Shown: piece by piece, positions 860-54,035 of the stretch
Numbering within the stretch: the stretch's first letter is position 1
Layout of the letters: each line of letters starts with the position of its first letter
Assembly (NCBI GenBank): GCA_000002445.1
Contig: CH464491.1
Span: forward strand, 320,001-384,000
Reading direction: 5' to 3'
Origin: Trypanosoma brucei
Lineage: Eukaryota
DNA length: 64,000 nt
Translations under genes and position numbers: made by a program
The notes under the pieces: model-generated
Database searches by the model: none
What the model saw: the letters and a program-made list of their open reading frames with translations, nothing else
Told to the model about the DNA's origin: nothing

Positions 860-959
860 NNNNNNNNNNNNNNNNNNNNNNNNNNNNNNNNNNNNNNNNN
901 NNNNNNNNNNNNNNNNNNNNNNNNNNNNNNNNNNNNNNNNNNNNNNNNNNNNNNNNNNN
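860..959. other. Run of 100 N: a scaffold/assembly gap inside a tandem calpain-like gene array. There is one more isolated n at 1011.
   Basis: Literal n characters in the sequence. Flanking sequences are paralogous calpain-like genes. Confidence 0.99.
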
Positions 960-3900
960 ATTCATAAAGAGGCGGAACAGCTACGGAACTTAAAAAGAGA
1001 CCCGCTTCGTNATAAGAGGGAGATAGATGACCTTGTGGAGCAAATGAATAATACTGTTGGTGAACTTGCCCTGAACTTACTACGTAGCGATCGTGACTAC
1101 TTGCATTTGGCTCCTGAGGGAGTACCGATTGAAGAGCTTCCACTGGAGGTCGATGCAAAGTTTTGTGCTTTGGAGGCGGAGCGTGCAATGTTAAAAGGCG
1201 AGAACAACCCGAAGAATGCGAGTATGATATTATCTTTGGAAGAGAAATTAAATGAGCGTGCTCGCCAGCTGGCTCAAGAGCAACTACTGGAAGACCTGAA
1301 GGAATTGAGTTCTTTTCAGCATTGTGTTCCTCTCTCACTTTTATCGCCTCATACTGACGTTCAGTTTGCTGCTGATGTTGCTGAATTTCGACGACTGAAA
1401 AAAGAAGGGGAGCAAAACACCCCTGCCATTCAGGGCGTTGTCGGGAGACTTAACGCACGTGCGAATGAGCTCGCGGAAGAGTATTTGCGTACCGATCGCG
1501 CATCGTATCTTAACCCTGAACAACTTGGTGTGCCACTTGACTTGCTATCTTTGGACACAGACTCTGAGTTCGTGTCACTGGAAGCTGAAAGGCTAAAATT
1601 GTTGTTGGACAGAGATGGTTATGTGTCTTATATTAATGTGTTGGAAACTCGTTTGAATGATAGGGTGCGGGAGCTGTGTCGTCTGAGTCTACTTGATTTT
1701 CCCGAATTTTTGTTGGATGTGTCGAACTTTGGGGTTCCTTTGGAGGAACTGTGCCTCTTCGAGGATGATGGTTATCGGCGTCACATTTGTTCGTGGTACA
1801 AGCTTCGTAGGACCCCGGAGGTTGATAACGAACGCATTTCTTGTGAAGCTTGTATTGTTGAAATAGTTCGGGAAAAAGCAAAATTGTATACTGAGGAGAT
1901 ACTTCGATCTCTTCCTCTCGTATATCGTGGTATACCGCTACGTGATGCCGATTTGTTTCGGAACGATGGTTTTATTAATAGTGTTAAACGTTTTCGGCGC
2001 GCCGTTCGTGAAAAGCGGGATGAGAGTGAGATTGTGGAGGCCGAAGATAATATGAAAAATATAGCATTTGATATAATTGATGGTTTGATTTTAAAGGAAC
2101 GTGGCAGTCTTGACCAAGAGCCGGAAGGAATATCTATCAATAACGTTCCACTTGATTACGACAACGCCTATCTTGAGATGGAAGCAGAACTCCATAGTCT
2201 TTTAAAGCAACAATCCATGTGTGAAGCGGCTTCCATATTGCAACTCCGAAAAGCAATGAACGACAGGGTACACCATCTTGCCCTTATTGAGCTGGCGAAG
2301 ATGAGGACTTTCTTGGACCCTGAGATATTCGGCATACCCATTAAAGATCTTCGTCTTGAAGGTGACATGGACTTCCGGAACGCGGAAATTAGTCGATATA
2401 AAAAATTAAAAAATGAGGCAAATGCTGATGTGAAAGACCTTGAAGTTTTAATGACAGCACGTGCACTTGAGGTAGCGAAGGCTTTTGTTGCGCGAGAGAG
2501 AGCTTTTTTAGAGCCAGAACCACATGGGTTGTTGTTAGAGGAATTGCTTCTAGATACGCATAAGGTGTTTACGGATTTGGAGAGGGAGCGCCGAGTGCTC
2601 CTCAAGGAGCCAGGGTTGTGTGAAAACACTGTGAAAATCAAATCACTGCAGGACAAAATGAGAGCTGTGGTCAACGAGTTGGCGGTAGCGTACGTTGCAG
2701 AGTCCCGTAAGTTCCTAGATCCTGCGCCAGAGGGTGTTCCGCTTGAGGAATTGTCTTTAGACTCGAACGAGCTATTTATTGAATTGGAGAAAAGGCGGTT
2801 TGGGCTCCTGCGGGAGGGGAAGGGAGATGAGGGTAATCTTAAAGATGTCGAGAAAAGTATGCAGGACTGCATTCGTGAGTTGGCTAAGGGGCTTTTGAAG
2901 GAAAATCGTGCCTATCTCAACCAAAAGCCATTAGGTATACCACTTGATTATCTACCCCTCAACAACGACAAGAAGCTCCGTGAATTAGAGAGGAAACGAC
3001 GGGAACTTCTGAATACCTACGATAATGATTCTCCCCAAGTGAAGTCTATAGAGGGGGTGATTATTAAGCGAATTGACAAAATTGCTGCTCGTTACCTTGA
3101 AGGAGAGCGCTCCTTTCTGGATCCTTGTCCACAAACTGTTCCCCTGCGTTACTTGCCTCTTAACGCAGACACCAATTTTTGTTCCCTGGAACAGAGGCGG
3201 AGGGAGCTGCGCAGGGGAGGAGACACTGCCGAAGATGATGCAATGATAAAGGAACTGGAAATTCGTATAAATGATCGCGCTCATGAACTGGCTAAAGAGG
3301 TACTACACAATGGTCGGCTTTTTCTTCATCCTGAAATTCTCGGTGTCGCAGTTTCTGATATTCCTTTGAGTGATCACGAACCGTTTGTTCAACTTGAAGA
3401 AGCTCTGAGAAGAATCAAGGTCGACAACCCAATAAACAGCTTTATGGAGGTTGACCTAAGGGAGAAATTAAAGCAGTGTGCGAGACAGGTAACTGAAAAG
3501 ATGCTCGATGAAGAACGGAGTTTCTTGGATCAAAATCCTTTGGGTATTCCACTGAACAGTTTGATGCTGAATTATGACCCGAAAATGCAAGAACTCGAGC
3601 GAGTGAGAAGGAAGAAACTGCGGGATAAAGTGGACGCTAACGAGGAGGAGAGGGAGATGGTGAGGCGCGTCAACGAGATGGCGGAGGAGGAATTACGCCG
3701 TCAACGTATGTACCTTCCGGCCACACCATTGGGAATCCCATTCCAGTACTTGGGTCTTGACAGCGATGGGAAATTTGGCCAAATGGAAAATTTTCTACGC
3801 ACATTGAAAAGGGATCCTCTGTCGAAAGAAAAAGCGATTCGTGATCAGGAGAACGCAAATAGGCAGTACGTATTTAGAACGGCAGCGGAATACAAACGAA

Positions 3901-9166: not shown

Positions 9167-9170
9167 GATA

Positions 9171-9185
9171 TAAATAAATAAATAA

Positions 9186-9218
<33 letters not shown>
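9171..9218. repeat. (AAAT)6 followed by an (AT)~14 microsatellite, immediately 3' of the RSP3 stop.
   Basis: The tract aaataaataaataaataaataaatatatatatatatatatatatatatata is seen directly. Confidence 0.95.
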
Positions 9219-38803: not shown

Positions 38804-39412
38804 ACAGCTTTGTTGAGGTCTCCATTATCTAGTTGAGAGATTTTTTATCGTAATAGTGTAGTCATTATACGCAGTTTATATTTGTTTCCCCTCCCCCAGA
38901 GGTTTATGTGTAATGGTCACACGACAGGAGAGCACAACGTCTGTGCGAATATATGGTGTACTGTTCCCGTTGGAGCAGTTGTTGGGAGACAGAGAAGTGC
39001 TACGGAAAGGAAAGGGGTCACACTCTGGAAGTCGAAAATGAAGTAAGTACCTTCATTGTCTATGGTTTGAAGGTGGTGGATGAGTGGGATCTGTCCCCCC
39101 TTGTCGCCTTGTACGTGGGGATTTTCTTGCCACTATTTCACACAGTCTTTTTTTTTGCCTTTACCTGAGATACTTGGTTGCCTCTTCTACATTGAATACT
39201 GTTCCGCGGTTGAATAGTAAAGACGCAGTCGAAGTGGGCTTCAATAGTGTCATCAGTTACTAAGCGATCATCTTGCTTACAATATCGGAAACATCTCCGA
39301 CTGAAGCCAACACAGACAGAAAAGGCTCGGCGTATCGTGAATACCATTGTGACTCTTATTTACGGCCGCTTCAGTCTACATCGGCAGTCTTCAACGTTGA
39401 GACGTGCCAGTA

Positions 39413-42298
39413 ATGGAGGAGAACAACGCAACTACAGGGCAGAAGCGAAGGCGCAGAAAAAACAAACGAGGACGGGAAGCTCAGCGGCCCACTGATTCAG
39501 ATGAACTCCAGCCTCTCGTTTCCTATGGTTCGTTGGCACAAACTCCCCTCTTAGCGGAAGAGCAGTCAGTGGGAGCAGTGAGCTTGAGCGCGCAGACGGC
39601 TGCTGCACCTTCCCCTGTCGTTGTGCCGGAGTTTACGGAAGCCGCTAAGAGTTCACCAAGTAGTGTTCAATTGCTGGGTGGTAGTACTGTCGCTCTGGTC
39701 GATAAGACGGTGGAAAGCCACTTCAGCCTCCACGGCCTTCCGTGTGCATCGTGCGCTTCGCATATTGAATCTCACATCGGTGAAATGGGTGGTGTGGCGC
39801 AAGTTACTGTGAACTTTGCATCTTCTCATGCTGTCGTCGTCCACAATCCTCATGTGGTGGGGGCAAGTCGCATCACGGAGGAAATGGAAGCAATGGGATA
39901 CACCGCTGTACTGATCTCCGCCCATTCAGACGATGCCGAACAGTTAGATAACTTGGGGGTGAGGGAATTTGAGCTGCTCATTGGTGGAATGACTTGTGGT
40001 TCATGCGTTTCAAGAGTGCAGTCGGCTCTTCTGGAGATCGATGTCGTGAAAAGCTGCACGATTAACTTTTCGACAGGTACCTGTAAATTAACTATGACCG
40101 GGGGTCGCGACTCTCTGAACTGCGTACAAGAAGAGGTGAAAAAGCTGGGTTACACTGCAACACCTTTGGAGGAGCGAGGGTCGGGAAATGCAGTGGATGT
40201 TATGAAAGAAGCTCTTGAGCGAACGAAGGAAATTCAGGCCCATAAGCGTGCCTTTGTCTTATCCGCCGTTTTGGCGACGCCGCTAGCTGTCTTTATGATC
40301 TTGATGACTGTCACCAAGTACTTCGAGGACATTACTACCATGGTCATCGTCAACACTATTCAACTATACCTCGCAACACCCATCGTTTTTTACTGTGGTT
40401 CTGGTTTCTTTTCTCGCGCGTGGGTTAATCTGAAACACCGTACGTTTACAATGGATACGTTAGTTGCCCTCGGCGCAGGCTGTTCCTATCTTTATTCGGT
40501 GGCGGGGCTGATCACAATGTTTTTAATGAAGCGGCACGTTACAACATATTTTGACACAGCGGGGATGTTAGTGGCTTTTATGTTACTCGGCCGCTACCTG
40601 GAGGCGTACGCTAAGCGTCATACTAATGATGCTCTCATTAAGCTCATGAACCTTGTTCCACCGACGTCACTTGTTGTCACTCCCGCAGGTGATGTTTCGA
40701 TGCCGTCCTCGACTGTAAAAAAGGGAATGCGAGTTCGCGTGCTCGCCGGTGACCGCGTTCCAGTTGACGGCGTACTTGTGGAAGGAAATTCCGACGTCGA
40801 TGAGCAGATGGTAACTGGAGAATCAGTGCCAAAACCTGTAAGTGCTGGCGGGACTGTTGTTGGTGGTACCACGAACCTCACGGCCATGATCGTCATAGAG
40901 GCAACAAAGGTTGGTGAGGAGGCCGTGTTGTCCCAAATCCTTCGCGTAGTTCGGGAGGCCCAGAACAGTAAACCGGCTATTCAGCGGATTGCCGACAAGG
41001 TTGCAGCCCGATTTGTTCCCGCTGTTATTATCTTTTCCCTGGTTGTCTTAGCGGTTTGGTTACTTCTTGGGGCTTTCAACCTTTACCCGAGTGAGTGGCG
41101 TGGAAACAATGAATCGACAACGGTCTTTGCGTTTGACTTCTTCATTGCGACGATTGTCGCAGCCTGCCCTTGCGCCCTTGGCTTGGCAACGCCTACGGCC
41201 ATTATGGTGGGAACTGGTGTTGGGGCAAAACATGGAATACTGGTTAAATGTGGGATGACTCTCGAGGCTATGCGCCGCACTCGCTGCGTTGTGTTTGACA
41301 AAACGGGAACCATTACGAACGGTACCTTGTGCGTTGTATTCCAAAGGCGCTGGGGTAATGGCGCCGATGCAGCAGTTGACGCGGTAGGGGCAGTTGAACA
41401 ACGGTCGAATCACCCAATCTCTCGAGCAATCGCGGTTTGCGTTGCCTCTGATCCTAAAAGTCAAGTAGCCGCCTATGAAGTAGTGACTTCCACGGTACAC
41501 AGCGGCCTCGGTGTGAAGGCAACGGTACAACGCAAGGACAGCGGTCACCAACTTAACGTTTTCATTGGTAACATGGACATGATGTTGAGTTCCGGTATTG
41601 ATGTTTCTGGGGAAGTGGCTAAGGTTGTGCGTTGGCAGATGGGGCTTGGCCGAACAGTCACTCTCGCTGCCGTTGATGGAAGCGTACGATTTCTTGCTGC
41701 TCTGGCAGATGAGCCAAAGGCAGAAGCTGCTGGTGTCATTCGATTCTTAAAGCGACAAAACATTCGTGTTTTCATGGTAACAGGCGACAATCCCGGCGTC
41801 GCAGCGGCTGTAGCGCAAGCAGTGGGGATTTCTCAGGAGGATGTCTATGCAGGTGCCCTTCCTGTCACCAAGGCTGCTGTTGTGAAGGCGTTTCAGGAGG
41901 AATATCGGGATGTTGTGTTTGTGGGCGATGGAATAAATGACGGCCCAGCACTGGCGCAAGCGAGTGTGGGTGTTGCCCTTGGTGCGGGTACTGAAATTGC
42001 CATTGAAGCTGCCGATGCGGTGCTGGTGCGAAACAGTTTAGTTGACTTGCTAAATCTTCGAGCACTTTCCATTACAACAGTGCGCCATGTTTACGGTAAT
42101 TTTATGTGGGCCTTTGGCTACAACGTGTTGATCCTCCCACTAGCAAGCGGGATGTTGTATCCTTTTCTGCACGTAAGGGTGCCCCCTGTCGTCGCCGGGG
42201 TTGCAATGATTCTTTCGAGCCTTAGTGTGCTTATGTCTAGCCTTTCCATTCGCTGTTTCTCACCTTACAAACGGGAACAGTTCATTGATATCATTTAG
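39413..42298 (+). CDS. Copper-transporting P1B-type ATPase (ATP7/CopA-like).
   Basis: Two N-terminal HMA domains (GLPCASCASHIE; GMTCGSCVSRVQ). It has the TM CPC motif (ACPCALGLATPTA, ~41160), the DKTGTIT phosphorylation site (~41296) and TGDN and GDGINDGPALAQASVGVALG hinge motifs. Confidence 0.9.
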   Translation: MEENNATTGQKRRRRKNKRGREAQRPTDSDELQPLVSYGSLAQTPLLAEEQSVGAVSLSAQTAAAPSPVVVPEFTEAAKSSPSSVQLLGGSTVALVDKTVESHFSLHGLPCASCASHIESHIGEMGGVAQVTVNFASSHAVVVHNPHVVGASRITEEMEAMGYTAVLISAHSDDAEQLDNLGVREFELLIGGMTCGSCVSRVQSALLEIDVVKSCTINFSTGTCKLTMTGGRDSLNCVQEEVKKLGYTATPLEERGSGNAVDVMKEALERTKEIQAHKRAFVLSAVLATPLAVFMILMTVTKYFEDITTMVIVNTIQLYLATPIVFYCGSGFFSRAWVNLKHRTFTMDTLVALGAGCSYLYSVAGLITMFLMKRHVTTYFDTAGMLVAFMLLGRYLEAYAKRHTNDALIKLMNLVPPTSLVVTPAGDVSMPSSTVKKGMRVRVLAGDRVPVDGVLVEGNSDVDEQMVTGESVPKPVSAGGTVVGGTTNLTAMIVIEATKVGEEAVLSQILRVVREAQNSKPAIQRIADKVAARFVPAVIIFSLVVLAVWLLLGAFNLYPSEWRGNNESTTVFAFDFFIATIVAACPCALGLATPTAIMVGTGVGAKHGILVKCGMTLEAMRRTRCVVFDKTGTITNGTLCVVFQRRWGNGADAAVDAVGAVEQRSNHPISRAIAVCVASDPKSQVAAYEVVTSTVHSGLGVKATVQRKDSGHQLNVFIGNMDMMLSSGIDVSGEVAKVVRWQMGLGRTVTLAAVDGSVRFLAALADEPKAEAAGVIRFLKRQNIRVFMVTGDNPGVAAAVAQAVGISQEDVYAGALPVTKAAVVKAFQEEYRDVVFVGDGINDGPALAQASVGVALGAGTEIAIEAADAVLVRNSLVDLLNLRALSITTVRHVYGNFMWAFGYNVLILPLASGMLYPFLHVRVPPVVAGVAMILSSLSVLMSSLSIRCFSPYKREQFIDII

Positions 42299-43593: not shown

Positions 43594-44103
43594 ATGACAA
43601 AATATGAGCTGAAGATGCAGTACTTTGACGAATGGATGATTCGCTGGCGCAAGTTCCAAACCGAATCGGATTGGGAAATTGAAAAGGGCCGTCAGTGGTG
43701 GCGCCGATTCAACATGGCAGTATCCGGTGCATTGTTTTGTGGTCTTGTGCTTTACACATCGGGAACAGCGACGCTGAAACGGCAGTACGGCCTCCCACAC
43801 TTCTTCGATATCGGAGTGGACGGTCAAGCAAAGGAAACAATGCTGAAAACTCTCACCTCCCGCTGGCGTTACACACCACAGGGTTATGGCCGAGTGCTGA
43901 TTACCGGCGTACCGACGTATATCCTCTTCGTGTCTTTGGAACATTACCGCGAGCGACGCCGCATGCAGCAATACTTGCAGCAGAACACGGTTTTTGGTGA
44001 GCAGATGCGGCGGTTGCTCAGTACTGGAAAGATTGAGGAGTACCTTCCAGTTAACATCAAAGCCACTTTACCAGCTTCTCAGCAGGCCATCTACAATTAT
44101 TAG
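43594..44103 (+). CDS. Small hypothetical protein (169 aa) with one predicted TM helix.
   Basis: ATG ORF with the hydrophobic segment MAVSGALFCGLVLYTSGTA and a W/R-rich N-terminus. (GGT)7 and (GT)11 microsatellites lie immediately downstream. Confidence 0.4.
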   Translation: MTKYELKMQYFDEWMIRWRKFQTESDWEIEKGRQWWRRFNMAVSGALFCGLVLYTSGTATLKRQYGLPHFFDIGVDGQAKETMLKTLTSRWRYTPQGYGRVLITGVPTYILFVSLEHYRERRRMQQYLQQNTVFGEQMRRLLSTGKIEEYLPVNIKATLPASQQAIYNY

Positions 44104-45900
44104 TGGCGGTGGTGGTGGTGGTGGTCGTTGCACGTTTAATGAGGTGTGTGTGTGTGTGTGTGTGTGGGAGGAAGGGGAATCCGTCAAGTAGCGATTTCAT
44201 TTATTTAAGTATGATACATGTGTTGGATTCGATGTGTCGGTGTCTTTTGTAGGATTGTTATAGCAAGGAGATGTGCAGTAGGGGGGTGACAAGCGTTTGT
44301 GAGAGTCGGTGACATAAAACGAACAGAGTTTGGGGGAATTCATTCTTCTCTCTAGTATGCGCTTTAGTTTGTTGTATGTCACAACGGAGCGGAACTTTGT
44401 GACGTTGGGGATATGTCCTTTATTTTTCTCTTCTACCCTTCTTAGTTTTTTTGTTATTGTGATTATATTTGTGATGTGCCCTGCTTAACTGACGGAGGAG
44501 TCAGAACCCTACATGTTTACTTTTTTCTATTCTCTTTTTTAACTCATGATCTCTGCAGTGTTTTCACAATCTCTCACTTAGGTTTTTTTTTTTAGCATCG
44601 TATGTCAACAACAATACCTGCAGTTACTGCGAGTGTGAGTGTTTGGTGAGAAACATCAAGGAAGAAGCTTAAGGGAATGAAGCAGTGGCTTAGGATAATT
44701 TTATGCTTGAAAAAGAGAAGAGAGAAAATGAGAAAATCTCGCACACAGAAGCGGAAAGACATAGGTGGGGTCAATGATTAACTATTTTTTACACCGTAGG
44801 GTAGAGGCTTATGAAAAGGTGAAAATAGTTCCAACATGACTCATTTTACCAATGGAGCAACAACAGTTGGGTTTCCCCAAGAAGCGTTCTCTAATGTATT
44901 ATATTTGCGGATAGTAACAATTGCTCGTGACAGAAAATGATTTGCCGCTTCTAACTGTATACCTGCTTACGGAGGGGTGTTGCATGGGGGTTAATATTAC
45001 TTCTTTTTCTTTTTTTTAAAAAAATATATATGTATGCATATACATATGTGTAAGTTTGCGTGCGTGTATTTCCCCTCCCCTGAAAGTAACTACATCGTGA
45101 CTCTCTGTTTGGTGTTATGTTAGCAACCGTTTCATTCATATAAATTCTACTGTACGCCATTCCTCCTCCTCCCCCCCTCCCAGATTTGTTGAGGTCGGCT
45201 CCCTTTTGCTGTCGGTAAGTTATCCATTGTATATGTTGTTTTATTGTTTTTGTTTCTTATCCTCTCTTCTTTCTTTTTTTTGTGTGTGTGTATGTGTGTT
45301 GACGTTGCGCAATCGCACACGTACAATTTGACCATCTCGTTTAATCGATTAAAATAGGTAGCCTGGGAGCATCCCAAAAATAGCTAACACTTGCTCGGTT
45401 ATCATCGAAGGAGACTTCGTTGTTTTACTTTTTTTTTTTTCGTGCGCGTTCTTCGGTCCTATTTGGTTGGGCGACGTTTACGGAGAGTTTGGTGTTGAGA
45501 AAAGGGATATATACGTACAATTTTCTCTTTTGTGTTCACGTTCGTGTGGTTGGTCTACAATCTGCGGAAGGTAGCGCAAAAAAAAGGAGGGTTTATCATT
45601 TTCACTGCACTTAACACCGGCAGCATCGCAGGCGCTTGTGAAAAGGGGTTTACAACGCTATAGACTGTTTGGTTTAACGGTTTACGTGAAGAAACAAAAT
45701 AAAAAGTACAAAAAAAACCAGCGGTTTGTAGGTGTTGCCGTTGAACAAAGGAAAGGAAGTAAAGAGTGAAGGAAGGAAGAATAGCAAGGGTTTCGGCTAC
45801 CGTCAACAAACTCCTTACAATTAAAGAAATAAAGAAAGAGAGAGTGCGAGAGAAAGAAAGAGAAAAGGGGTCTAAAATCAGCACAGTTAAAATAAGAGTG

Positions 45901-46710
45901 ATGAGGCCAACAGGAGAGTCTGAGAAGTTTATAACACTTCCAACCGCCTCGCGGGTACTTCCCACGGGAGGAAGCCCTGCTGATGGCGGTCAGAGGTTGC
46001 AAACTACTATGGGCATAGTATCCCACGGCGCTCAACAGCAAAGGCACAACTCCCAGAACAATGTTACATGGAGGTTGGGAGTAGATGATAGCGTGGAGTC
46101 AAACGGCCTGAATGTTCATGTCCGTGTGCGCGACAGCCGTACTCCAACGCCATTTACTTCCATGTTTGTATCGAGCAGTAGCTCCTCGCCCCTGACAGCT
46201 CGAAGCATGTCCGGATATCAGGAGGAAGAAACATCTCCATATTCCATCAGCGGTGCTGAATACTTGTCTGCTGGTGAACACATAGCACACACAGCACTAA
46301 GTGGGAAATGCAGTTTTTTTTCCTTTCCGGAAGGTTTGCCATCCTTTCGGCCGCCGTCAGTTCCCGCCGAGCGCACCCACAAATTGTTTATTGGACAGCT
46401 ACGCTTTGAAATGTCGCTGGAGGCGCTCGTCTGGTTCCTGCACGAAACCATCAATGTTAATGTGTGCAACATTGAGAAGCGTGGTTGTGGCTGCGCAATT
46501 ATTTCACTGTCGAGTGAGGCGGACCGTGAGGCCGTATTGCAGCTGAAGGAACGGCTCCTCGTTGACATTGGCGGTATGTGGTATGCACGGAGCGATGAGG
46601 AGTGCTGTAACCTCCACAACTACATTGATTGCAGCGTTGCACATATTCCACGACCGCAGAAAGTTCCTCAGCGGCTAGTGGTAATTGAGGAGGCCCGGAC
46701 GGGCAGATAA
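45901..46710 (+). CDS. RNA-recognition-motif (RRM) containing RNA-binding protein.
   Basis: It has an RNP2-like KLFIGQL and a beta-alpha-beta pattern ...LEALVWFLHETINVNVCNIEKRGCGCAIISLSSEADREAVLQ. The first ATG is 45901. The ORF-track GTG start at 45766 lies in purine-rich UTR-like sequence. Confidence 0.5.
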   Translation: MRPTGESEKFITLPTASRVLPTGGSPADGGQRLQTTMGIVSHGAQQQRHNSQNNVTWRLGVDDSVESNGLNVHVRVRDSRTPTPFTSMFVSSSSSSPLTARSMSGYQEEETSPYSISGAEYLSAGEHIAHTALSGKCSFFSFPEGLPSFRPPSVPAERTHKLFIGQLRFEMSLEALVWFLHETINVNVCNIEKRGCGCAIISLSSEADREAVLQLKERLLVDIGGMWYARSDEECCNLHNYIDCSVAHIPRPQKVPQRLVVIEEARTGR

Positions 46711-49700
46711 GTCCGTCTGTCCTGCGCATGCATGTGTGTCCTTTTTGTATTTAATCTTTTATATTTCCCACCTTTTCTCGTCCCATTTTTTGACTTGTTT
46801 TTTGTTCACTTTTGGGTGGATGGGAGTGCAAAAACTGGGGCGTTGCGATACATGAGGTCAACGAAGGTGAGGAAATGTAGTGGACGCGCATGTTGCGTTG
46901 TGCTGTAGAGACAGGGAGTTTTTTTTTTTTTAATTGTAAATAAAAACACCGACGGAAGACAGATTGTTAGTATATTTGGGCAAATTTTGTTCGGTAGTGA
47001 TAGCTAACGATAACGACAGAAGTTACTCACCATTAACGGAAACCGAAATGGGCACAAACGGCAAATATGATGAATGAAAATATCGGAAAAGAATAACAGT
47101 GGGAAGATACAAATCAATAAAGACAACTTCACAACATAAAAGGGCGGTAAAGCATAAGAGGTCAACACCTTTTCGGGTGTTTATTCATTCATTTATTTAT
47201 TCATTTATTAGTCGTTATCAATTTTGAATATCAATAACGATAAAGTGATAATAATAACTTTTAAGGGACGTTTCATTTAATTTAACTCCATTTCTTTTTT
47301 ACTTGTATGTGTGTATATTTTGAGTGTATGTGCATCAGCGACACAATTTCGTTTTGGTCGTTTTTATGACTAGAAGATTTTATGGGAAGGTGATGCAACC
47401 TTTCTTCTTCCTTTTCTTTCCCTTCCCTTCCCTTTCCTTCCCTTCCCTTTTTTTTTAAAAAGAAAATTGACTGTTTCCTGTGGAAAGTGCGTTACCGAAA
47501 GAAGCTTCTGCAGGAACATTTTGGGGTTTTATAATTAAAATAAAAAAAATATTAAAAAATAAAATAATGATAATAATGAAATAACAACAGTAATGAGGAG
47601 AAAGAACTGGGAAAACCGGGTTCGATGGTGACGAAGAAATTCTTTCAAAAGGATTCCGTTACCTTTTTCTCTTCAAATTAAATAACAACAACGGCAGCGA
47701 CAAAAACAAAAAACGGAGTGAAAAGGAATAAAAATATCATAATGAAGAGCGTCACTGGAACCTCCAACGGAGTAATTCCGTTTCCTCCGGCAGTTTTCAA
47801 CATCACGATTTAGTCGGATAATCACGGTAATTTTTTTTAAAAACCTTTTTTTTATTTTTGAAAAGGAATATGTATATAAACATGTGTATTCAAATATATT
47901 TAAATCTAAAAGCGGTAGACACACAAACACAAACATATAACATTTATTTATATAATATGAATGGGTTTGTTTGCATGTGTGACTGCATATTGTAAATATT
48001 CGTCACTATCATAGAAAAAAAACAAGATTGTACATGTATGATTATATGTAAAACATAAATTATAGACCCAATCGACGCACACTTTTTCTTTTGTTTTCCT
48101 TTTATTGAAACTTCACCAATATTGACGATGCACCGGAGGAAAAAAAAAAGGAAAAGAAATACCGTTGGTTATTATTATTATTATTATTATTTAAATTTAA
48201 AAAGAGAACATTTTTTTTTTTGTGCCTCGCTTTTCCACCGCCCTTTTCATGTTTTTATTTTCCCCCTCTCACCCTTAACACCTGAAAAAAAAAGCCGTTA
48301 TTTCAAAGCCCGCTTTCTTCCTTAAATTAATTAAACTCTCGAAATTGCACCTCTACCTGTGTCCTTGTCCACGAAATTAACAGCAGTTTTTAATTTTCTT
48401 TTTCCTCCTTAATTTTATCCCAACATTTTTTTTAATAACCTTTTTTAATTTCCTTTTCTTTTTACCTTCCAATCCTCACTTTACTTTCTCTTTTTTTTGT
48501 TTTGTTTTCATTTTTGTCACACTGCCCGCACCCACCCACCCCCTCCACTCCAATAAGCAAACACACACATATATTTATATATATTTATATATATATTTAT
48601 TTATATGAAGAAAGAAAGAAAGAAAAAAATGCGTTTACTCAACACTGTTTAAAAAACACCTCTTTTATTTCTCCTTTTTTTACTTTTAGTTTTGCATTTG
48701 TTTTATTGTGCATACGCCGTTTTTTTTTTTTGTTGGCATTGTTGTAGTGTTCCGTCGCCCGCCCACAATGTTCATTGTTTTGTTTTGTTTCTGGTCAGGT
48801 TAGAGAGAAAAGGGTGACACCTCAAGCAAAAAAAAATGGTGAAGGAAAGTTAATTATTTAATAAAAGAGTTGGGGAATCGAGAATGCATAACAGGTCGCA
48901 GCATCACATTGCCCGTCCTTTTTTTTTCCTCTTTCTCTCCACTACTTTCTTTCTTATTACAATATTAATAATTATTATTATTACTTCCCCCTTTTAAATA
49001 TTTAAATATTTTTTTCCCCTTCTGGTGTTGTTCCACCGCATCACACGCCTCAAAAACATCTTCGCTTTAACTCATGCTAACAATTTAAAGCAGCGAAAAA
49101 TGATTGAATAATTAGCGACAGCATTTATTCAATAATTTTTGCTTGTTTGCTCTTTACAGCTGATGGAATGAAATGGCTCAGGGGCAAAAGTTGCAGCTTT
49201 TATAATAAAGGCGACGATGGTGTGATGGTGGAGTCATATATATATATATATATTTATTTATTTATTTATTTATATATTTATATATTTATATTTATTTCAT
49301 TTGCCTGCATTTTCACACCTGTTTTTTTTTGAATTGTGTGTGTGTGTGTACATGTGCATGCATATTTTGTTTCAATTTTTCATGTATCTTCCTTTCCTAT
49401 TTTTTTATATTTTTCTTTATATATATATATATATTTATTCAACCATTCATATACACACCACTTGACACTATCACGTTTGTCTCTGTGTGTTCTTTTTTTT
49501 TTGAAAAAAAAATAATTTCCCATATATATACGTCTTCTATATATCCACGTTTGTGCGCTTATCTATACATGTATATATATACATCTATATGCATCTGTAT
49601 TTGATTTTTGATTGATTTGACTGAACTGCGGGCGGCGGAATCGTAAAAGAAAAAAAGAATGAGGCATTGATTTTTTTTTTTTGAAAAAGCAAATATGTAG

Positions 49701-51261
49701 AGAAGGCGGACACAAATGTACAAACGTGAAACAAATCAGCAACTTAAAAGTTAAAAGGAGAAAAGTGAAAAAAATAAAATAAGGTATGATACATTGAGTG
49801 ATATGAGGTGTCTTTTTTTTTTTTACTTAGAGGGTACAGTGTGCACCATTTTTTCTTTCTTTCTTTTTTTGTTATTGAGGTGTGGTTGGGGGGGAAACAG
49901 AAACTTTTTTTTTAAAAAAGGAGAATCAATTTTTAATTTTATTTTTACCTTCACACAAATAACTTTTTTTAAAAAAATATGTTTTTCTCTTGATTCCCTA
50001 CCCACCGTTACGGTACTGGATTTCTTTACTTTCTTTTTTTCATCAATGTTTATATTTATTACTTGTGCTTTTTTTTTTTTCGTAAAAAAAAGGATTAAAA
50101 ATTTTTTTTAATTATATACCCCTATCTTTCATTTTATTATTGTAAATTGTATACACCATGTTAATTATTTATCTGAAATGAGTGAAAAGGTGACAAATGT
50201 AAAAAAAAAACAGCAAAGTGTGGCAGCCCTGTTTCGCTTGAAGTTTACTTTGAATGTAGTTGGGCGCTTCCCTTTATTAATATTGTTAATTATTTTTATT
50301 TTGTTATGCTTTATTTTACTTTGTTTTTATTTCATTTTTTTTTCTATTCACTGGGTTTTCACTTTGTTGCCTTTTCCTCTTCGTCACTGCCGTTGCCGTT
50401 GCTCCTATCGCTCCTCACTGGTGTGGTATCTTTTTGTTTGATTCCCTTTCTCTTCTTCTCTTTTTTTTTCTTCCTCTTTATCCCTCTACTATATTACGTT
50501 ATATTTTAAAATATCCCTCATGTATGATTAGATGGAGACAAGGGAAAAGAAAGAAAGAACGAAACCTCCTTTACTCGTGTATGCATTATAATACGGCATA
50601 TGTCATATTATTCTCTTTTTTAAAAAAAAAAACATATTCGTATAGGAGTAGTGCACACTTTATGTTGTTAGGTAGAGGCAAAGATATAAATGTATAATAC
50701 ATGCATATATATATATATATATATTGTGCATCTAAAAGGCGGAAGGAAACGAAAGAGAGCGTTGTTGCGATATGTTTCTTCAGTTATTTGTGTTGCTGGT
50801 GGTGGTGCGTGAGCGAGAAAATAATTAGAATTCGCGTATTAGATGAATTACCGGAGGTTTCCGCTCCCACCACCAAAAAAAATAATATAAGTACGGCGTG
50901 ATTCACCGGAGACGTTGCCGTTCATCTTATTTTTTGAGGAGACATGAAAGAAAAAAAGAGAAAGAACGAAGGAGTCTGTGGGCCAACCAGCTACTCGGGG
51001 TTTTTGGAGTGATACATCGTGTCGTTGTGTTTCATAGAATGTTGGTGCCTTTTTTTTTAAAAAAAAATCGAATAATACGATTTGGACGATCCCTTTAATG
51101 TTTTTGTGTGTTGTATTCACCTGTACCCAGTCAAATGCAGTGCGTCGTGTATCGTCTTTTCTCCCCATACCTCTGAAACGATTGTTTGCTCATACAGACA
51201 CACACACACACAAAAAAAAAGGCCGGAGCCACGATAAATTATACACGTGCATGCTGGAATA
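46711..51261 (+). other. ~4.5 kb gene-free AT-rich tract, probably a very long 3'UTR/intergenic region. It contains AUUUA-type AU-rich elements and many microsatellites.
   Basis: No ORF above 105 aa on either strand, and all ORFs are low complexity. UAUUUAUUUAUUUAUUUAUAUAUUUAUAUAUUUAUAUUUAUUU lies at 49247-49295. ATTTA clusters sit at 47170-47210. (TTCCC)n is at 47400-47450 and TnAn tracts are present. Confidence 0.6.
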
Positions 51262-52458
51262 ATGAAATTGTCACAACGGTTCCTATCAAACACTTTAGCG
51301 GAGGCCGGCACGCTTCCTTCCCGTGGGACGAGCCATTCTGAAGCAATACGGCAGTTGATCATGTCTACATTTCCTACAGCAACCATCTCATTTATCACCA
51401 CAGGTTCTAATGGTGCTCACAGTGCCAACGTTACTGATACTACCGCTAGTGTCACTAATGCAGGAACCTGCGCAGAAGAGGACGAAAAACTTATGGAACA
51501 ATTACGTATGAAGGACCAGGAGTCCAAACAATCGGTAGGATGCAGTGAATCACTCGGAGCTCGGCGTGGGCCCTTCACAGATTGCTGCTCACCTCAAGGA
51601 GTTGCGGAGTGGCAACGTTTGCATCAGTTGTTCCCAGCAGAAGCTTTCGTAAATGCTCCACAACCCTGTTGGACTCCACATGCTGTAGTTTACATTGGTG
51701 GATTTGAAGCCCCCGACTTGCGCCGTACAGTTGCACCGCGACTTTTCGAAAAGGTGCCCGCCTTCGTAACGGATAGCGAGCGGGAGCAAACCGTTGGAGG
51801 TCGGACGGCTGTAGGAGGGCGGCAGAAAAATCCCAAGTATGCAACCAAAACACTCCACACGGGACTCCTCATGAGTGAAAAGGGTTGTGCACTGCACGAA
51901 CCAGATTTACTGCAGTTGGCTCTACCACATGTGGGACCATCTGCTATGATACGTACTCGCACATATCTTTCATTTGCTGGTGCGGAGCCTAATGTAACGG
52001 CGTTGAATGGCGCAGTGGACCCGATGCAGCGGGTGGCGCTTCGTCCAGCCTTTGGTTATTCCGCTGCGGCGCTGAGGAACACACTTCCATTTGTTGTCGT
52101 GGGGGCATCTCTGTTACTCCGCCGCTGGAATGCACGATGGTCCTCCACAACTTTGAGTAGCGCCTTTTGGCTTTCTGCAGTTGGTCATGCGGTGGAGAGC
52201 GGACGCATGAGTGAAGCCGGATTGTTAGTGCAGAAGGGAGGCGTGGATGCAAATTCAGTGATGCGGGTGCTGGCAATGGAGGCAAGTTCAATAGCGAAAA
52301 ACTGCCCAGAGGATTGTTGTGTAAACTACTTTTTGCCATCGGAGACATTTGAGTTAGAGAGAGGTTTTGCCGAGTTGATGAATGTTGGACCTCGTCTTCC
52401 CATCGATGATCTAAAGGTATTACCCGTGTACCCTCTTTTGGTGCGTCAAACACGTTAG
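51262..52458 (+). CDS. Hypothetical protein. The N-terminus is presequence-like.
   Basis: ORF from the first ATG (MKLSQRFLSNTLAEAGTLPSRG...), with codon-like composition throughout. The ORF-track start at 51247 is GTG. Confidence 0.5.
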   Translation: MKLSQRFLSNTLAEAGTLPSRGTSHSEAIRQLIMSTFPTATISFITTGSNGAHSANVTDTTASVTNAGTCAEEDEKLMEQLRMKDQESKQSVGCSESLGARRGPFTDCCSPQGVAEWQRLHQLFPAEAFVNAPQPCWTPHAVVYIGGFEAPDLRRTVAPRLFEKVPAFVTDSEREQTVGGRTAVGGRQKNPKYATKTLHTGLLMSEKGCALHEPDLLQLALPHVGPSAMIRTRTYLSFAGAEPNVTALNGAVDPMQRVALRPAFGYSAAALRNTLPFVVVGASLLLRRWNARWSSTTLSSAFWLSAVGHAVESGRMSEAGLLVQKGGVDANSVMRVLAMEASSIAKNCPEDCCVNYFLPSETFELERGFAELMNVGPRLPIDDLKVLPVYPLLVRQTR

Positions 52459-52952
52459 TGTTGTTGTTGTTGCTGTTGTTTTTCTTAGTTATTAGGGGCG
52501 AATGTTTCTCATCCGCCGTCATGAGGATAGAAAGGTATTTATTTTTATAGTTAAGGCCTCCTTTGCGTGTGATGTGTGTCTGTTTGTGTTGTCAAAGCTT
52601 TATCGGCAAATGGGTGGTGGTCTACCCGAGGGAAGGCCTTTTGTTGTTGTTGTTGTTGTTGTCTTATTGGGGAAGAAGTCAGCGCATAGAATTTTTTTTA
52701 AAAGAAAAAATGGTGGCAAATTTGGGTAATATTCTTTTTCTTTCTATTTCTTTAAAAAGAAAAAAACGGTATTATAACAACATCTCGGCTAGAGTATATA
52801 TATATATGTATATTACCTCCAACGTGCCGTCACGTTTTGTGCTTCTTAATCTATATATTTATCTCTCGGTACTGTTTTTTATGCCTTACCCGACAAGTTA
52901 CCATATTGCCCTTTGTCAAGCAACAAAACGCAAAGAACGTGGTTCGTTGAGA

Positions 52953-54035
52953 ATGAATGTTTTTGATTCCAACAGCATGCTCTGTCAAGTTGTTAGCAAT
53001 ATCACAGACCCGGTGGAACTTTTCATCGAACCAGAAATGACTGTGGGTGAGGTGCGTGCATTGGTTGCGGAGATGACAGTTGACTCCAACGATTGGAATG
53101 TTCGTCTCACATTCCAAGGTCACACTTTAGAGGACGACGAGGAGACATGGAGTTCCGTGACTCAGCAGTACCCCGTCGCACAAGGAGTTGCTCCTAAACT
53201 CTTTTCACATGCATCTAAGAAACGAGAAGAAAAGGCGCGACGACCGGTGAGTTTACCTCTGATGGAAGAACAAAAGGATCGACAGCAGGCAAAACTTATG
53301 GAACCGATAATCGACACGTTGGTTAACGATCCAAATTTTTCGGAGATGATGATCTCGGGTCAGCCGTCGCTTCGTCGTTTGATTGATGCGAACCCGGAGG
53401 TGGGGCGCTTGTTCCGGAACCCAGAAACCCTCAAGAGTCTCATTATGTCACAAATCGACCCTGATCAGCGAAGGGCAATGAATCGAAATGTGCAGTTGCA
53501 GTTGGCACAAATTAGCGCGATTCCCGGTGGTGAGCAGCTTCTTGAACGGTATACCAGTGGGCTTATGGACGATATGGACCTAAACTTGGACCTTGTGAGG
53601 AACACAAAGATTAAGGTTCCAGAAGACGAAAAAGATGATAATTCCGAGTCTGTGAGAGGGGTAAATAGCGAAGCCCTTCCAAACCCTTGGAGTCAGTCGA
53701 CTAACACCGCCGACTCGGGTAACACAAACACTTTTAGTAACGCCGCGATGAACCTTTTTGGGATTCCTGGGAATGTGGGCCATCCGAGTTTAGGAAACCT
53801 TTTTGGGTCCGGTTTGGGGGGACCGTTTCCTTTTATGTCTCCCGGCATCTCAATACCCCAAACAGGCGTAACCGCATCGCAACGGGGAGATGACGCCACG
53901 CGGTGGTCTCAGCAACTCGCCATGTTGAAGGATATGGGTTTCATGGATGAAGAGTTGTGTTTGGACGCACTTCGAATGACTAATGGAGATGTGGACATGG
54001 CAGTAAACTTCATTGTGAACAAAGATAGCTCTTGA
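52953..54035 (+). CDS. Ubiquilin/Dsk2-like protein: N-terminal ubiquitin-like domain, STI1-like repeats and a C-terminal UBA domain.
   Basis: The UBL is MNVFDSNSMLCQVVSNITDPVELFIEPEMTVGEVRALVAEM...LTFQGHTLEDDE. The STI1-like repeats include QPSLRRLIDANPEV...FRNPETLKSL. The UBA is WSQQLAMLKDMGFMDEELCLDALRMTNGDVDMAVNFIV. The ORF-track upstream extension (52563-52952) is a translated poly-pyrimidine/(GTT)n tract. Confidence 0.75.
   Translation: MNVFDSNSMLCQVVSNITDPVELFIEPEMTVGEVRALVAEMTVDSNDWNVRLTFQGHTLEDDEETWSSVTQQYPVAQGVAPKLFSHASKKREEKARRPVSLPLMEEQKDRQQAKLMEPIIDTLVNDPNFSEMMISGQPSLRRLIDANPEVGRLFRNPETLKSLIMSQIDPDQRRAMNRNVQLQLAQISAIPGGEQLLERYTSGLMDDMDLNLDLVRNTKIKVPEDEKDDNSESVRGVNSEALPNPWSQSTNTADSGNTNTFSNAAMNLFGIPGNVGHPSLGNLFGSGLGGPFPFMSPGISIPQTGVTASQRGDDATRWSQQLAMLKDMGFMDEELCLDALRMTNGDVDMAVNFIVNKDSS

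What the first reader, a model, noticed from the sequence alone, without database searches (positions are those of the whole stretch)
45901..51261. RRM-protein gene followed by a 4.5 kb coding-free tract rich in AUUUA/U-rich elements
After the RRM CDS stop (46710) no plausible CDS occurs for ~4.5 kb on either strand. All ORFs there are low-complexity translations of microsatellites. The tract contains dense UAUUUAU(n) blocks (49247-49295; 47170-47210) and many TnAn junctions. RNA-binding-protein genes in trypanosomes often carry very long regulatory 3'UTRs. Alternatively the region may hide a non-coding RNA.
Basis: partly seen in the sequence, partly recalled or inferred. Interest (0 to 1): 0.55.

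Follow-up and report, generated by a model that had tools for sequence, protein, structure and literature searches.

The report
Long 3'UTR of trypanosome gene Tb927.11.1280
The 4.5 kb gene-free stretch is mostly the already-mapped 3.65 kb untranslated tail of a bloodstream-stage Trypanosoma brucei mRNA, followed by a short published non-coding transcript, so it is real but ordinary for this parasite and already on record.

Summary
The window is T. brucei TREU927 chromosome 11 (Tb927_11_01_v4 320001-384000). The gene at 45901-46710 is Tb927.11.1280 (old ID Tb11.47.0021).

- There are 4551 nt with no credible CDS, the longest of 19 spacers in the window.
- GC is 0.32.
- UAUUUAU occurs 17 times on the sense strand and 0 times on the antisense strand.

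Published RNA-seq (Kolev 2010) already resolves the tract:
- The mRNA spans window 45295-50360, giving a 3650-nt 3'UTR flagged as alternatively processed.
- After a polypyrimidine gap comes a separate spliced-leader-capped, polyadenylated 518-nt "novel transcript", Tb11.NT.17 (50538-51056).
- Next comes the upstream region of Tb927.11.1290.

Other findings:
- ORFs in the tract are frame-broken in T. b. gambiense and T. b. equiperdum.
- There are no Rfam or tRNA hits, and predicted folding is no stronger than in control spacers.
- The main AU block is a length-polymorphic microsatellite.
- The mRNA is bloodstream-enriched and modestly RBP10-associated in published data.
- A regulatory role for the UTR is inferred, not shown.
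- The protein has no Pfam RRM hit, but a confident AlphaFold model matches only RRM structures.

Verdict: already known, low interest.

The parts
45295..45900 (+). 5'UTR of the Tb927.11.1280 (Tb11.47.0021) mRNA, as published
   Evidence: Kolev 2010 Table S3 gives the transcript start as chr 365295. In the TREU927 reference this position is not preceded by AG, so it may be a coverage-based boundary or a strain difference.
45901..46710 (+). CDS of Tb927.11.1280: 269 aa, disordered N-terminal half, divergent RRM-fold domain at residues ~130-269
   Evidence: Exact match to EAN79107.1/Q387C4. The CDS is 810 nt in Mugo & Clayton S2 Table. AF2 pLDDT is 89-98 for residues 130-269. The top 50 Foldseek PDB hits are all RRM proteins. 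No Pfam hit.
46711..50360 (+). Mapped 3650-nt 3'UTR of Tb927.11.1280, flagged as alternatively processed
   Evidence: Kolev 2010 Table S3 gives the transcript end as chr 370360 with the flag 'alt 3UTR'. The end lies 178 nt upstream of the next mapped splice site, within Kolev's interquartile range of 123-178 nt. Composition is A 0.30, C 0.16, G 0.15, T 0.39.
47180..47209 (+). AU-rich block (UUUAUUCAUUCA repeats), invariant among three Trypanozoon genomes
47399..47456 (+). 58-nt polypyrimidine tract with AG at 47461-47462. It is the strongest candidate for the internal (alternative) processing signal; this is an inference.
   Evidence: The tract is conserved with small changes in T. b. gambiense and T. 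b. equiperdum. The actual internal site is not given in the published table.
48569..48606 (+). AU microsatellite (UAUAUUUAU-type)
49236..49295 (+). (AU)9 plus (UAUU)n block, the main source of UAUUUAU matches; length-polymorphic
   Evidence: Indels of 6-20 nt between T. b. brucei, T. b. gambiense and T. b. equiperdum. This is an indel hot spot: 51 indel columns in 49104-49603.
50442..50487 (+). Polypyrimidine tract driving trans-splicing of Tb11.NT.17 and, by coupling, polyadenylation of the upstream mRNA
   Evidence: The AG at 50536-50537 sits immediately before the mapped 5' end at 50538 and is conserved. The upstream AG at 50530-31 is AA in the other two genomes.
50538..51056 (+). Tb11.NT.17: published 518-nt trans-spliced, polyadenylated 'novel transcript'; most likely non-coding
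   Evidence: Kolev 2010 Table S7 gives chr 370538-371056. A poly(A) site at chr 370950/370958 appears in a second table. Its 66-aa ORF (50701-50901) is frame-broken in T. b. gambiense and T. b. equiperdum. It has the highest substitution rate of the locus, 35-37/kb.
51155..51166 (+). Polypyrimidine tract, followed by AG at 51196-97, that probably serves Tb927.11.1290 (inferred)
   Evidence: No published site was retrieved for this gene.
51262..52458 (+). CDS of Tb927.11.1290 (Q387C3, 398 aa, hypothetical), the downstream limit of the tract

Best explanation
The tract is ordinary trypanosome post-transcriptional architecture, and it has already been mapped.

Anatomy (shown by published mapping):
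- 46711-50360 is the 3650-nt 3'UTR of the Tb927.11.1280 mRNA.
- The polypyrimidine tract at 50442-50487 and the AG at 50536-37 direct spliced-leader addition at 50538.
- By the known coupling of the two reactions, that splicing sets the upstream poly(A) site about 178 nt before it.
- The product of that splice is a short, weakly expressed transcript, Tb11.NT.17 (50538-51056).
- A further polypyrimidine tract then serves Tb927.11.1290 (this step is inferred).

Alternative processing. The 3'UTR holds about 20 other polypyrimidine tracts. Kolev et al. list it among genes with alternative 3'UTR processing, meaning a full-length mRNA, a shorter coding mRNA and a UTR-internal non-coding RNA.

Function (inferred, not shown). 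The mRNA is much more abundant in bloodstream forms than in insect stages. The long UTR is therefore probably the platform for several redundant stage-specific stability and translation elements and their binding proteins, as was demonstrated for the 7.3-kb RBP10 3'UTR.

AU-rich blocks. They are microsatellites. They may contribute in a context-dependent way but are not demonstrated AREs.
For: Identity of window and gene:
- Exact protein matches to TREU927 chromosome 11.
- Cu-ATPase = Tb927.11.1260.
- Tb927.11.1280 has an 810-nt CDS.
- Old IDs follow from gene order and protein sizes.
- CDS coordinates chr 365901-366710 equal window 45901-46710 plus 320000.
- The offset is verified to the base: both published novel-transcript 5' ends fall right after an AG.

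Transcript map:
- Kolev Tables S3, S7 and the PAS table, with their meaning taken from the main text.
- Median 3'UTR is 388 nt, range up to about 6000 nt. PAS-to-SAS distance has a median of 142 nt and an interquartile range of 123-178 nt.

Non-coding nature:
- No gene calls in two other annotated genomes.
- ORFs are frame-broken between subspecies.
- Indels run at about 7/kb against 0 in CDSs, and substitutions at 16-18/kb against 6/kb in CDSs.
- No Rfam or tRNA hit.
- Fold z-scores equal those of control spacers.
- Only microsatellites, no dispersed repeat.

Regulation of the mRNA:
- 94-fold higher in bloodstream forms than in salivary-gland parasites (PMC3998935).
- Flagged 'Down PC/BS polys', and RBP10 pull-down ratios of 2.65 and 3.50 (PMC5568443 S2 Table).
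- Among 23 genes commonly differentially expressed in clones selected for monomorphism, in the paper's section on downregulated gene regulators, and listed there as a predicted RBP10 target (PMC11612274).

Precedent and comparison:
- RBP10 3'UTR dissection and the role of (AU)n repeats (PMC8982893).
- DRBD18 masking of UTR-internal polypyrimidine tracts (PMC9380746).
- In syntenic loci the spacer after the ortholog is 1642 nt in T. conorhini, the longest of that locus, and 530 nt in Angomonas, near the longest.
Against: - The published map comes from procyclic T. b. rhodesiense, where this mRNA is scarce. The bloodstream-form 3' end was not retrieved.
- The position of the internal alternative site is not given.
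- The published 5' end (45295) is not preceded by AG in the reference.
- No reporter or deletion data exist for this UTR.
- The UTR is not clearly more conserved than other non-coding DNA: 16.3 against 21.8 substitutions/kb, p=0.056, using the wider control. The p=8e-4 depended on a narrow control.
- It shows no sequence conservation with T. vivax or T. conorhini.
- The RBP10 motif UAUUUUUU is not enriched: 3 copies in the tract against 3.2 +/- 1.7 expected, and only 2 of them inside the UTR.
Confidence: 0.8

Rival explanations
1. Mostly neutral spacer. The tract is an expansion of low-complexity, microsatellite-rich DNA with no specific regulatory content. Its length and the extra transcripts (UTR-internal RNA, Tb11.NT.17) are by-products of promiscuous trans-splicing and polyadenylation at chance polypyrimidine tracts.
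For: - The substitution rate is indistinguishable from other non-coding DNA.
- The AU blocks are length-polymorphic.
- There is no cross-species conservation.
- The spacer is only 1642 nt in T. conorhini and 530 nt in Angomonas.
- Kolev reports highly heterogeneous processing sites genome-wide.
- Tb11.NT.17 has the lowest abundance value of its neighbours in the table (0.34) and the fastest divergence.
Against: - The mRNA is strongly stage-regulated. In trypanosomes such regulation is normally carried by the 3'UTR (PMC8982893).
- The spacer after this gene is the longest or near-longest in each syntenic locus examined.
Confidence: 0.3
2. Functional long non-coding RNA(s). Tb11.NT.17 and/or the UTR-internal transcript act as regulators in their own right, for example of neighbouring genes or of differentiation, as reported for the lncRNA grumpy next to RBP7.
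For: - Tb11.NT.17 is trans-spliced and polyadenylated with a conserved acceptor AG.
- Kolev lists a UTR-internal non-coding transcript class for this gene.
- A precedent exists in T. brucei (PMC9200285, abstract only).
- The host gene is among those altered during selection for monomorphism.
Against: - There is no structure signal above control and no Rfam family.
- Tb11.NT.17 is the fastest-evolving segment, 35-37 substitutions/kb with indels.
- Its abundance value is low.
- No functional data were found. The lncRNA catalogue supplements could not be searched.
Confidence: 0.1
3. A missed protein-coding gene or small-peptide gene lies in the tract.
For: ORFs of 66-106 aa exist. Tb11.NT.17 is not in Kolev's list of transcripts without an ORF of >=25 aa.
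Against: - The 66-aa and 105-aa ORFs are frame-shifted or stopped in T. b. gambiense and T. b. equiperdum.
- Their translations are low-complexity.
- No gene is called there in two other annotations.
- Tb11.NT.17 was absent from the other Kolev supplementary files searched, which should include the tables of conserved or peptide-supported novel ORFs; some files were cut when stored.
Confidence: 0.02
4. A structured small RNA gene or cluster (snoRNA, tRNA, other) is hidden in the tract.
For: Kolev notes that some snoRNAs map in 3'UTRs.
Against: - A permissive Rfam scan of 44000-53000 gave only two sub-threshold miRNA-model matches, E 0.25-0.3, far below gathering scores.
- There are no tRNAs.
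- Fold z-scores have a mean of -0.67 against -0.52 in control spacers. The extremes coincide with self-complementary AU microsatellites.
Confidence: 0.03

Closest known systems
RBP10 (Tb927.8.2780) 7.3-kb 3'UTR of T. brucei
   Same: - A very long, CDS-free, AU/U-rich 3'UTR on a bloodstream-form-enriched mRNA.
- Many internal polypyrimidine tracts, (AU)n repeats and poly(A) tracts.
- Subject to alternative processing (PMC8982893; PMC9380746).
   Different: - Half the length (3.65 kb).
- No reporter dissection, and no evidence retrieved here of DRBD18 dependence.
- The encoded protein is an uncharacterised divergent-RRM protein rather than a proven regulator.
Kolev 2010 class of 394 genes with alternative 3'UTR processing, and the 1,114 'novel transcripts'
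   Same: Tb11.47.0021 is literally listed in the first class. Tb11.NT.17 (and the upstream Tb11.NT.16) are listed in the second.
   Different: Nothing differs. This is membership by listing. Only the internal site coordinates and bloodstream-form data are missing.
Mammalian class II AU-rich elements (overlapping UUAUUUAUU nonamers) and trypanosomatid U-rich/ARE instability elements
   Same: Four UUAUUUAUU nonamers and 17 UAUUUAU heptamers lie on the sense strand within a U-rich context.
   Different: - They arise from (TATT)n/(AT)n microsatellites that vary in length between subspecies.
- The same repeat occurs in the opposite orientation in another spacer of the window, 9168-9215.
- No binding or decay data exist.
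Canonical RRM domain (Pfam PF00076), e.g. CELF1 and hnRNP A1 RRMs
   Same: - The confident model has the beta-alpha-beta-beta-alpha-beta core, and all top 50 structural matches are RRMs.
- There is an RNP2-like L162-F-I-G-Q-L167.
- The family profile's best PDB sequence hits are CELF1 and hnRNP A1, in register at RNP2 and RNP1.
   Different: - No Pfam match for any of 59 family members.
- RNP1 aromatic positions appear to be C198, I200 and L203, by a weak alignment.
- Extra N- and C-terminal strands and a third helix.

Membership tests
Trypanosome long 3'UTR (part of one mature mRNA) | Sequence is contiguous with the CDS in a mapped mature transcript | tested here: met
   Taken from published RNA-seq, not from my own data. 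Kolev 2010 Table S3 gives the transcript as chr 365295-370360 around CDS 365901-366710. The coordinate offset is verified at two independent AG acceptor sites.
Trypanosome long 3'UTR (part of one mature mRNA) | No protein-coding gene inside | tested here: met
   ORFs are <=106 aa and low-complexity. They are frame-broken between subspecies. No gene calls in two annotations.
Trypanosome long 3'UTR (part of one mature mRNA) | The 3' end is set by a downstream polypyrimidine tract / trans-splice site at about 100-200 nt | tested here: met
   End at 50360, polypyrimidine tract at 50442-50487, splice site at 50538. The distance is 178 nt against a published interquartile range of 123-178 nt.
Regulatory 3'UTR of the RBP10 type | UTR or its fragments confer stage-specific expression on a reporter | not testable with these tools
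   Only correlative evidence: the mRNA is 94x higher in bloodstream than in salivary-gland forms, is flagged 'Down PC/BS polys', and has RBP10 pull-down ratios of 2.65/3.50.
Regulatory 3'UTR of the RBP10 type | Sequence constraint above the neutral non-coding background | tested here: inconclusive
   16.3 against 21.8 substitutions/kb, p=0.056, with the wide control. With local control only, p=8e-4. No conservation with T. vivax or T. conorhini.
AU-rich element (AUUUA / UUAUUUAUU type) | Clustered or overlapping AUUUA pentamers in a U-rich 3'UTR context | tested here: met
   17 TATTTAT and 4 TTATTTATT on the sense strand, 0 on the antisense strand; shuffles give 2.0 +/- 1.5 and 0.4 +/- 0.7.
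AU-rich element (AUUUA / UUAUUUAUU type) | Element is conserved, or shown to bind an ARE-binding protein or destabilise the mRNA | tested here: inconclusive
   The main block 49236-49295 is length-polymorphic among three Trypanozoon genomes, while block 47180-47209 is invariant. Binding and decay are not testable here.
RRM domain (PF00076 and relatives) | Significant match to a Pfam RRM profile | tested here: not met
   No family at E<=0.1 for the whole protein. None at E<=10 for the C-terminal domain. None for 59 homologues.
RRM domain (PF00076 and relatives) | beta1-alpha1-beta2-beta3-alpha2-beta4 fold matching solved RRMs | tested here: met
   AF2 with a 59-sequence alignment gives pLDDT 89-98 for residues 130-269. 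The Foldseek PDB top 50 are all RRM proteins, E 6e-4 to 5e-3, probability 0.87-1.0. An earlier shallow model was uninformative.
RRM domain (PF00076 and relatives) | RNP2 and RNP1 motifs with conserved aromatic residues on beta1 and beta3 | tested here: inconclusive
   RNP2 L-F-I-G-Q-L is present and F163 is nearly invariant. RNP1 positions 3, 5 and 8 map to C198, I200 and L203 by a weak profile alignment to CELF1, E=0.06.
RRM domain (PF00076 and relatives) | Binds RNA | not testable with these tools
   No data found.
Trypanosome lncRNA / Kolev 'novel transcript' | Independent SL-trans-spliced and polyadenylated RNA lacking a conserved ORF | tested here: met
   Tb11.NT.17 is listed at chr 370538-371056 with a poly(A) site at 370950/370958. 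An AG lies directly upstream. Its ORF is not conserved.
Rfam ncRNA families (snoRNA, tRNA etc.) | Covariance-model or tRNA-scan match | tested here: not met

The most novel reading that the evidence does not exclude
Tb927.11.1280 may be an unrecognised divergent-RRM developmental regulator. On this reading, its 3.65-kb alternatively processed 3'UTR, together with the UTR-internal RNA and Tb11.NT.17, forms an RBP10-linked switch that helps set bloodstream-form identity or competence for slender-to-stumpy differentiation. The non-coding products would act like the lncRNA grumpy at the RBP7 locus.
Probability: 0.08. Interest if true: 0.6.

Novelty: already known. Interest (0 to 1): 0.18.

Why it matters
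It matters little as a discovery. The transcript boundaries, the alternative-processing flag and the small downstream transcript have been in a public supplement since 2010. Long, polypyrimidine-rich, AU-rich 3'UTRs on regulated mRNAs are a recognised feature of T. brucei.

Two modest points of value remain:
- This is a clean, compact second example alongside RBP10 of a very long 3'UTR on a bloodstream-enriched mRNA. It could be dissected with reporters.
- The encoded protein belongs to a kinetoplastid-wide family that Pfam does not recognise, with at least 220 homologues, and it now has fold-level evidence for a divergent RRM. Together with its reported RBP10 association and its altered expression in clones selected for monomorphism, that makes it a reasonable candidate regulator.

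Tried and rejected
Searches that found nothing:
- Hidden ncRNA: Rfam permissive scan, tRNA scan, and sliding-window fold z-scores against control spacers (the first attempt, timed out).
- Hidden gene: ORF listing, other annotations and subspecies frame check. Rejected.
- Transposon or dispersed repeat origin: window-wide repeat search and TRF found only microsatellites.
- Cross-species conservation of the UTR: blastn against the T. vivax, T. conorhini and Angomonas downstream spacers gave only low-complexity matches.

Data that could not be retrieved:
- The T. congolense locus.
- Supplement searches came back empty or unavailable for PMC8982893, PMC11405848, PMC9380746, PMC9200285 and PMC2926603. 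I therefore have no bloodstream-form poly(A)/SL sites, no DRBD18 data and no lncRNA-catalogue entry for this locus.

Ideas tested and weakened or dropped:
- Constraint on the UTR: the apparent signal (p=8e-4) weakened to p=0.056 with a wider control, so it is not claimed.
- RBP10 motif enrichment: rejected, 3 copies against 3.2 expected.

RRM detection by sequence failed before structure worked:
- Pfam and PDB phmmer found nothing.
- The first AlphaFold model from 3 sequences was too poor, pLDDT 39. It matched generic ferredoxin-like folds.

Full report
WHAT THE WINDOW IS

All ORFs of 150 aa or more that look like genes lie on the plus strand, so the window is one polycistronic unit. Three proteins flanking the finding match T. 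brucei brucei TREU927 chromosome 11 entries exactly: EAN79106, EAN79107 and EAN79108, equal to Q387C5, Q387C4 and Q387C3.

The gene identifiers were worked out as follows:
- The P-type Cu-ATPase at 39404-42298 (Pfam) is Tb927.11.1260 (PMC11537032).
- Tb927.11.1270 is the 169-aa ATP-synthase subunit.
- Tb927.11.1280 is listed with an 810-nt CDS, exactly the length of 45901-46710.
- Old identifiers follow from gene order and protein sizes. Tb11.47.0024 is 98 kDa and Tb11.47.0022 is 20.2 kDa, so the gene here is Tb11.47.0021.
- Kolev et al. 2010 give the Tb11.47.0021 CDS as Tb927_11_01_v4 365901-366710. The window is therefore chr 320001-384000.
- The offset is verified to the base. The published 5' ends of two neighbouring 'novel transcripts' (window 44559 and 50538) each fall directly after an AG preceded by a polypyrimidine tract.

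CHECK OF THE OBSERVATION

The stop codon is at 46708-46710 and the next CDS (Tb927.11.1290, Q387C3) starts at 51262. The CDS-free gap is 4551 nt.

- It is the longest of 19 spacers in the window. The median is 1180 nt and the next longest is 2201 nt.
- It is the most AT-rich spacer, GC 0.324.
- The longest ORFs inside are 105-106 aa and are visibly translations of low-complexity DNA.
- The T. b. gambiense and T. b. equiperdum annotations call no gene there.
- The AU-rich blocks are at the stated places: 47180-47209, 49236-49295, and also 48569-48606.

Motif counts:
- UAUUUAU: 17 on the sense strand and 0 on the antisense strand, against 2.0 +/- 1.5 in dinucleotide shuffles and 0.70/kb in the other spacers.
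- AUUUA: 31 against 21.7 +/- 4.5, only mildly enriched.
- TnAn junctions: 1.76/kb against 0.55/kb.

The caveat is that most of the heptamer excess comes from two or three microsatellites.

WHAT THE TRACT IS

Published single-nucleotide RNA-seq of procyclic T. b. rhodesiense (Kolev et al. 2010, PMC2936537) already dissects it.

- Table S3 lists Tb11.47.0021 with transcript limits chr 365295-370360 and the flag 'alt 3UTR'. In window terms this is a 606-nt 5'UTR, the 810-nt CDS and a 3650-nt 3'UTR (46711-50360).
- The paper defines this class as genes with 'unambiguous alternative processing'. Such genes yield a full-length transcript, a shorter ORF-containing transcript and a putative non-coding UTR-internal transcript.
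- The median 3'UTR in that study is 388 nt with a range to about 6000 nt. This UTR is therefore about nine times the median but within the known range.
- Table S7 lists a separate trans-spliced, polyadenylated novel transcript, Tb11.NT.17, at chr 370538-371056, which is window 50538-51056 (518 nt). A poly(A) site at chr 370950/370958 appears in another table.

The sequence agrees with this map:
- A 46-nt polypyrimidine tract (50442-50487) is followed by an AG at 50536-37.
- The upstream poly(A) site lies 178 nt before the splice site. That is inside the published interquartile range of 123-178 nt for this coupled reaction.
- The used AG is conserved in T. b. gambiense and T. b. equiperdum, while a nearby unused AG is not.
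- The remaining 200 nt contain another polypyrimidine tract (51155-51166) and an AG that presumably serve Tb927.11.1290. This last point is inferred.

TESTS OF THE ALTERNATIVES

Coding.
- The 66-aa ORF inside Tb11.NT.17 and the 105-aa ORF at 49794-50111 are frame-shifted or interrupted in the two other Trypanozoon genomes.
- The tract carries about 7 indel events/kb against none in the flanking CDSs.
- Substitutions run at 16-18/kb against about 6/kb in CDSs.

Structured RNA.
- A permissive Rfam scan of 44000-53000 returned only two far-sub-threshold miRNA-model matches.
- There are no tRNAs.
- Sliding-window fold z-scores have a mean of -0.67, with 16% of windows below -2. Control spacers have a mean of -0.52, with 12% below -2.
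- The extremes sit on self-complementary AU repeats.

Mobile or dispersed repeats. Only microsatellites were found.

Constraint.
- A first comparison suggested the UTR evolves more slowly than its immediate non-coding neighbours (p=8e-4).
- With a 6.9-kb non-coding control the difference is 16.3 against 21.8/kb, p=0.056.
- I do not claim constraint.

Cross-species comparison.
- The orthologous locus is syntenic in T. vivax, T. conorhini and Angomonas deanei.
- The spacer after the ortholog is 1642 nt in T. conorhini, the longest of that locus.
- It is 530 nt in Angomonas, near the longest of that locus.
- It is at least 1056 nt in T. vivax, where the contig ends.
- There is no sequence similarity beyond low-complexity runs.

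HOW IT MOST LIKELY WORKS

Shown (by published mapping plus sequence signals): the tract is one long 3'UTR, then a processing signal, then a short independent transcript, then the next gene's upstream region.

Inferred: the UTR is the regulatory platform of a stage-regulated mRNA. The supporting correlations are:
- Tb11.47.0021 is 94-fold higher in bloodstream forms than in salivary-gland parasites (PMC3998935).
- Tb927.11.1280 is flagged as lower on procyclic than on bloodstream polysomes (PMC5568443 S2 Table).
- It is 2.65- and 3.5-fold enriched in RBP10 pull-downs (same table).
- It is one of 23 genes commonly differentially expressed in clones selected for monomorphism, in the paper's section on downregulated gene regulators. 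It is listed there as a predicted RBP10 target (PMC11612274).

The precedent is the 7.3-kb RBP10 3'UTR:
- It carries at least six independent bloodstream-specific elements with no shared short motif.
- An (AU)n repeat in it affects expression in a context-dependent way (PMC8982893).
- In long UTRs, internal polypyrimidine tracts are proposed to be masked by DRBD18 (PMC9380746).

The UTR here has about 20 polypyrimidine tracts of 12 nt or more. The strongest is the 58-nt tract at 47399-47456, with an AG 6 nt downstream. It is my candidate for the internal processing site. The published table does not give the site.

The AU blocks are best described as microsatellites:
- The main one (49236-49295) differs by 6-20 nt between the three genomes.
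- The same repeat occurs in reverse orientation in another spacer of the window.
- The RBP10 motif UAUUUUUU is not enriched: 3 copies, of which 2 lie in the UTR, against 3.2 +/- 1.7 expected.

THE 'RRM' LABEL

Sequence methods do not see an RRM:
- No Pfam family for the protein.
- None for its C-terminal domain at E<=10.
- None for 59 homologues.
- No PDB sequence hit.

An exhaustive profile search found 220 homologues (E<=1e-3) that share residues ~125-267. Those with names come from T. vivax, T. conorhini and Angomonas, and all are 'hypothetical'.

The family profile's best PDB sequence hits are weak (E 0.06-0.9). All 17 are RRM proteins (CELF1, hnRNP A1), aligned at RNP2 and RNP1.

A first AlphaFold model from three sequences was poor, pLDDT 39. 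It matched generic ferredoxin-like folds.

With the 59-sequence alignment:
- Residues 130-269 reach pLDDT 89-98.
- The top 50 Foldseek PDB matches are all RRM-containing proteins, with E 6e-4 to 5e-3. They include SFPQ/NONO/PSPC1, CELF/Bruno-like, SRp46, eIF4B/4H, CBP20 and PTB.

The fold is therefore an RRM variant:
- The RNP2-like L162-F-I-G-Q-L167 is present.
- The RNP1 aromatic positions appear to be C198, I200 and L203, by a weak alignment.
- RNA binding is untested.

COMPARISON WITH WHAT IS KNOWN, AND NOVELTY

The feature is a listed member of Kolev's 'alternative 3'UTR processing' class, and Tb11.NT.17 is a listed 'novel transcript'. In kind it is the same as the RBP10 3'UTR, at half the length and without functional dissection. 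It resembles class II AREs in motif content only. It is not a member of any Rfam family.

Nothing here is new in kind, and the anatomy is already public, so I rate it 'already known'.

VERDICT

The mechanism is ordinary for T. brucei and the mapping is already published. Interest is 0.18.

The most novel reading not excluded is a divergent-RRM regulator whose long UTR and associated non-coding RNAs form an RBP10-linked developmental switch. I give it about 8% probability.

Noticed in passing
window 44559-45158 (+): A second published 'novel transcript', Tb11.NT.16 (599 nt), lies between Tb927.11.1270 and Tb927.11.1280. Its 5' end falls directly after CTGCAG and a polypyrimidine tract.
   Followed up: partly
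window 45901-46710; proteins P0013-P0160: Tb927.11.1280 belongs to a kinetoplastid-wide family of at least 220 homologues that share a ~140-residue C-terminal domain. No member hits any Pfam family. The confident model is an RRM variant with extra strands and a third helix, so this is a candidate for a new family entry.
   Followed up: partly
window 45295: The published 5' end of the Tb11.47.0021 transcript is preceded by TG, not AG, in TREU927 and in the two other genomes. It sits in a GT-microsatellite just after a polypyrimidine tract. It may be a coverage-based boundary or a strain difference.
   Followed up: partly
window 212-511 and 4311-4610: A 300-nt direct repeat, 99% identical and 4.1 kb apart. 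The copies lie within the ORF at 47-967 and the 1729-aa ORF at 804-5993.
   Followed up: no
L002 3892-6404 (T. b. equiperdum), equivalent to window 39404-42298: The Cu-ATPase (Tb927.11.1260 ortholog) is called as two genes, 490 aa and 241 aa, in the T. b. equiperdum assembly. It is one gene in T. b. gambiense and in the window. This could be a frameshift, a pseudogene or an assembly error.
   Followed up: no
window 52563-54035: The ubiquilin/UBA gene Tb927.11.1300 has an ORF extending upstream to 52563. It is called at 384 aa in T. b. gambiense and 360 aa in T. b. equiperdum. It carries a 51-94-column in-frame indel between genomes. A paper mentions it as a possible alternatively spliced mRNA.
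   Followed up: no
window 9168-9215 versus 49236-49283: The (ATAA)n(AT)n microsatellite in another spacer is the near-perfect reverse complement (94-100%) of the AU block in this tract. This shows that such repeats occur in both orientations relative to transcription.
   Followed up: partly
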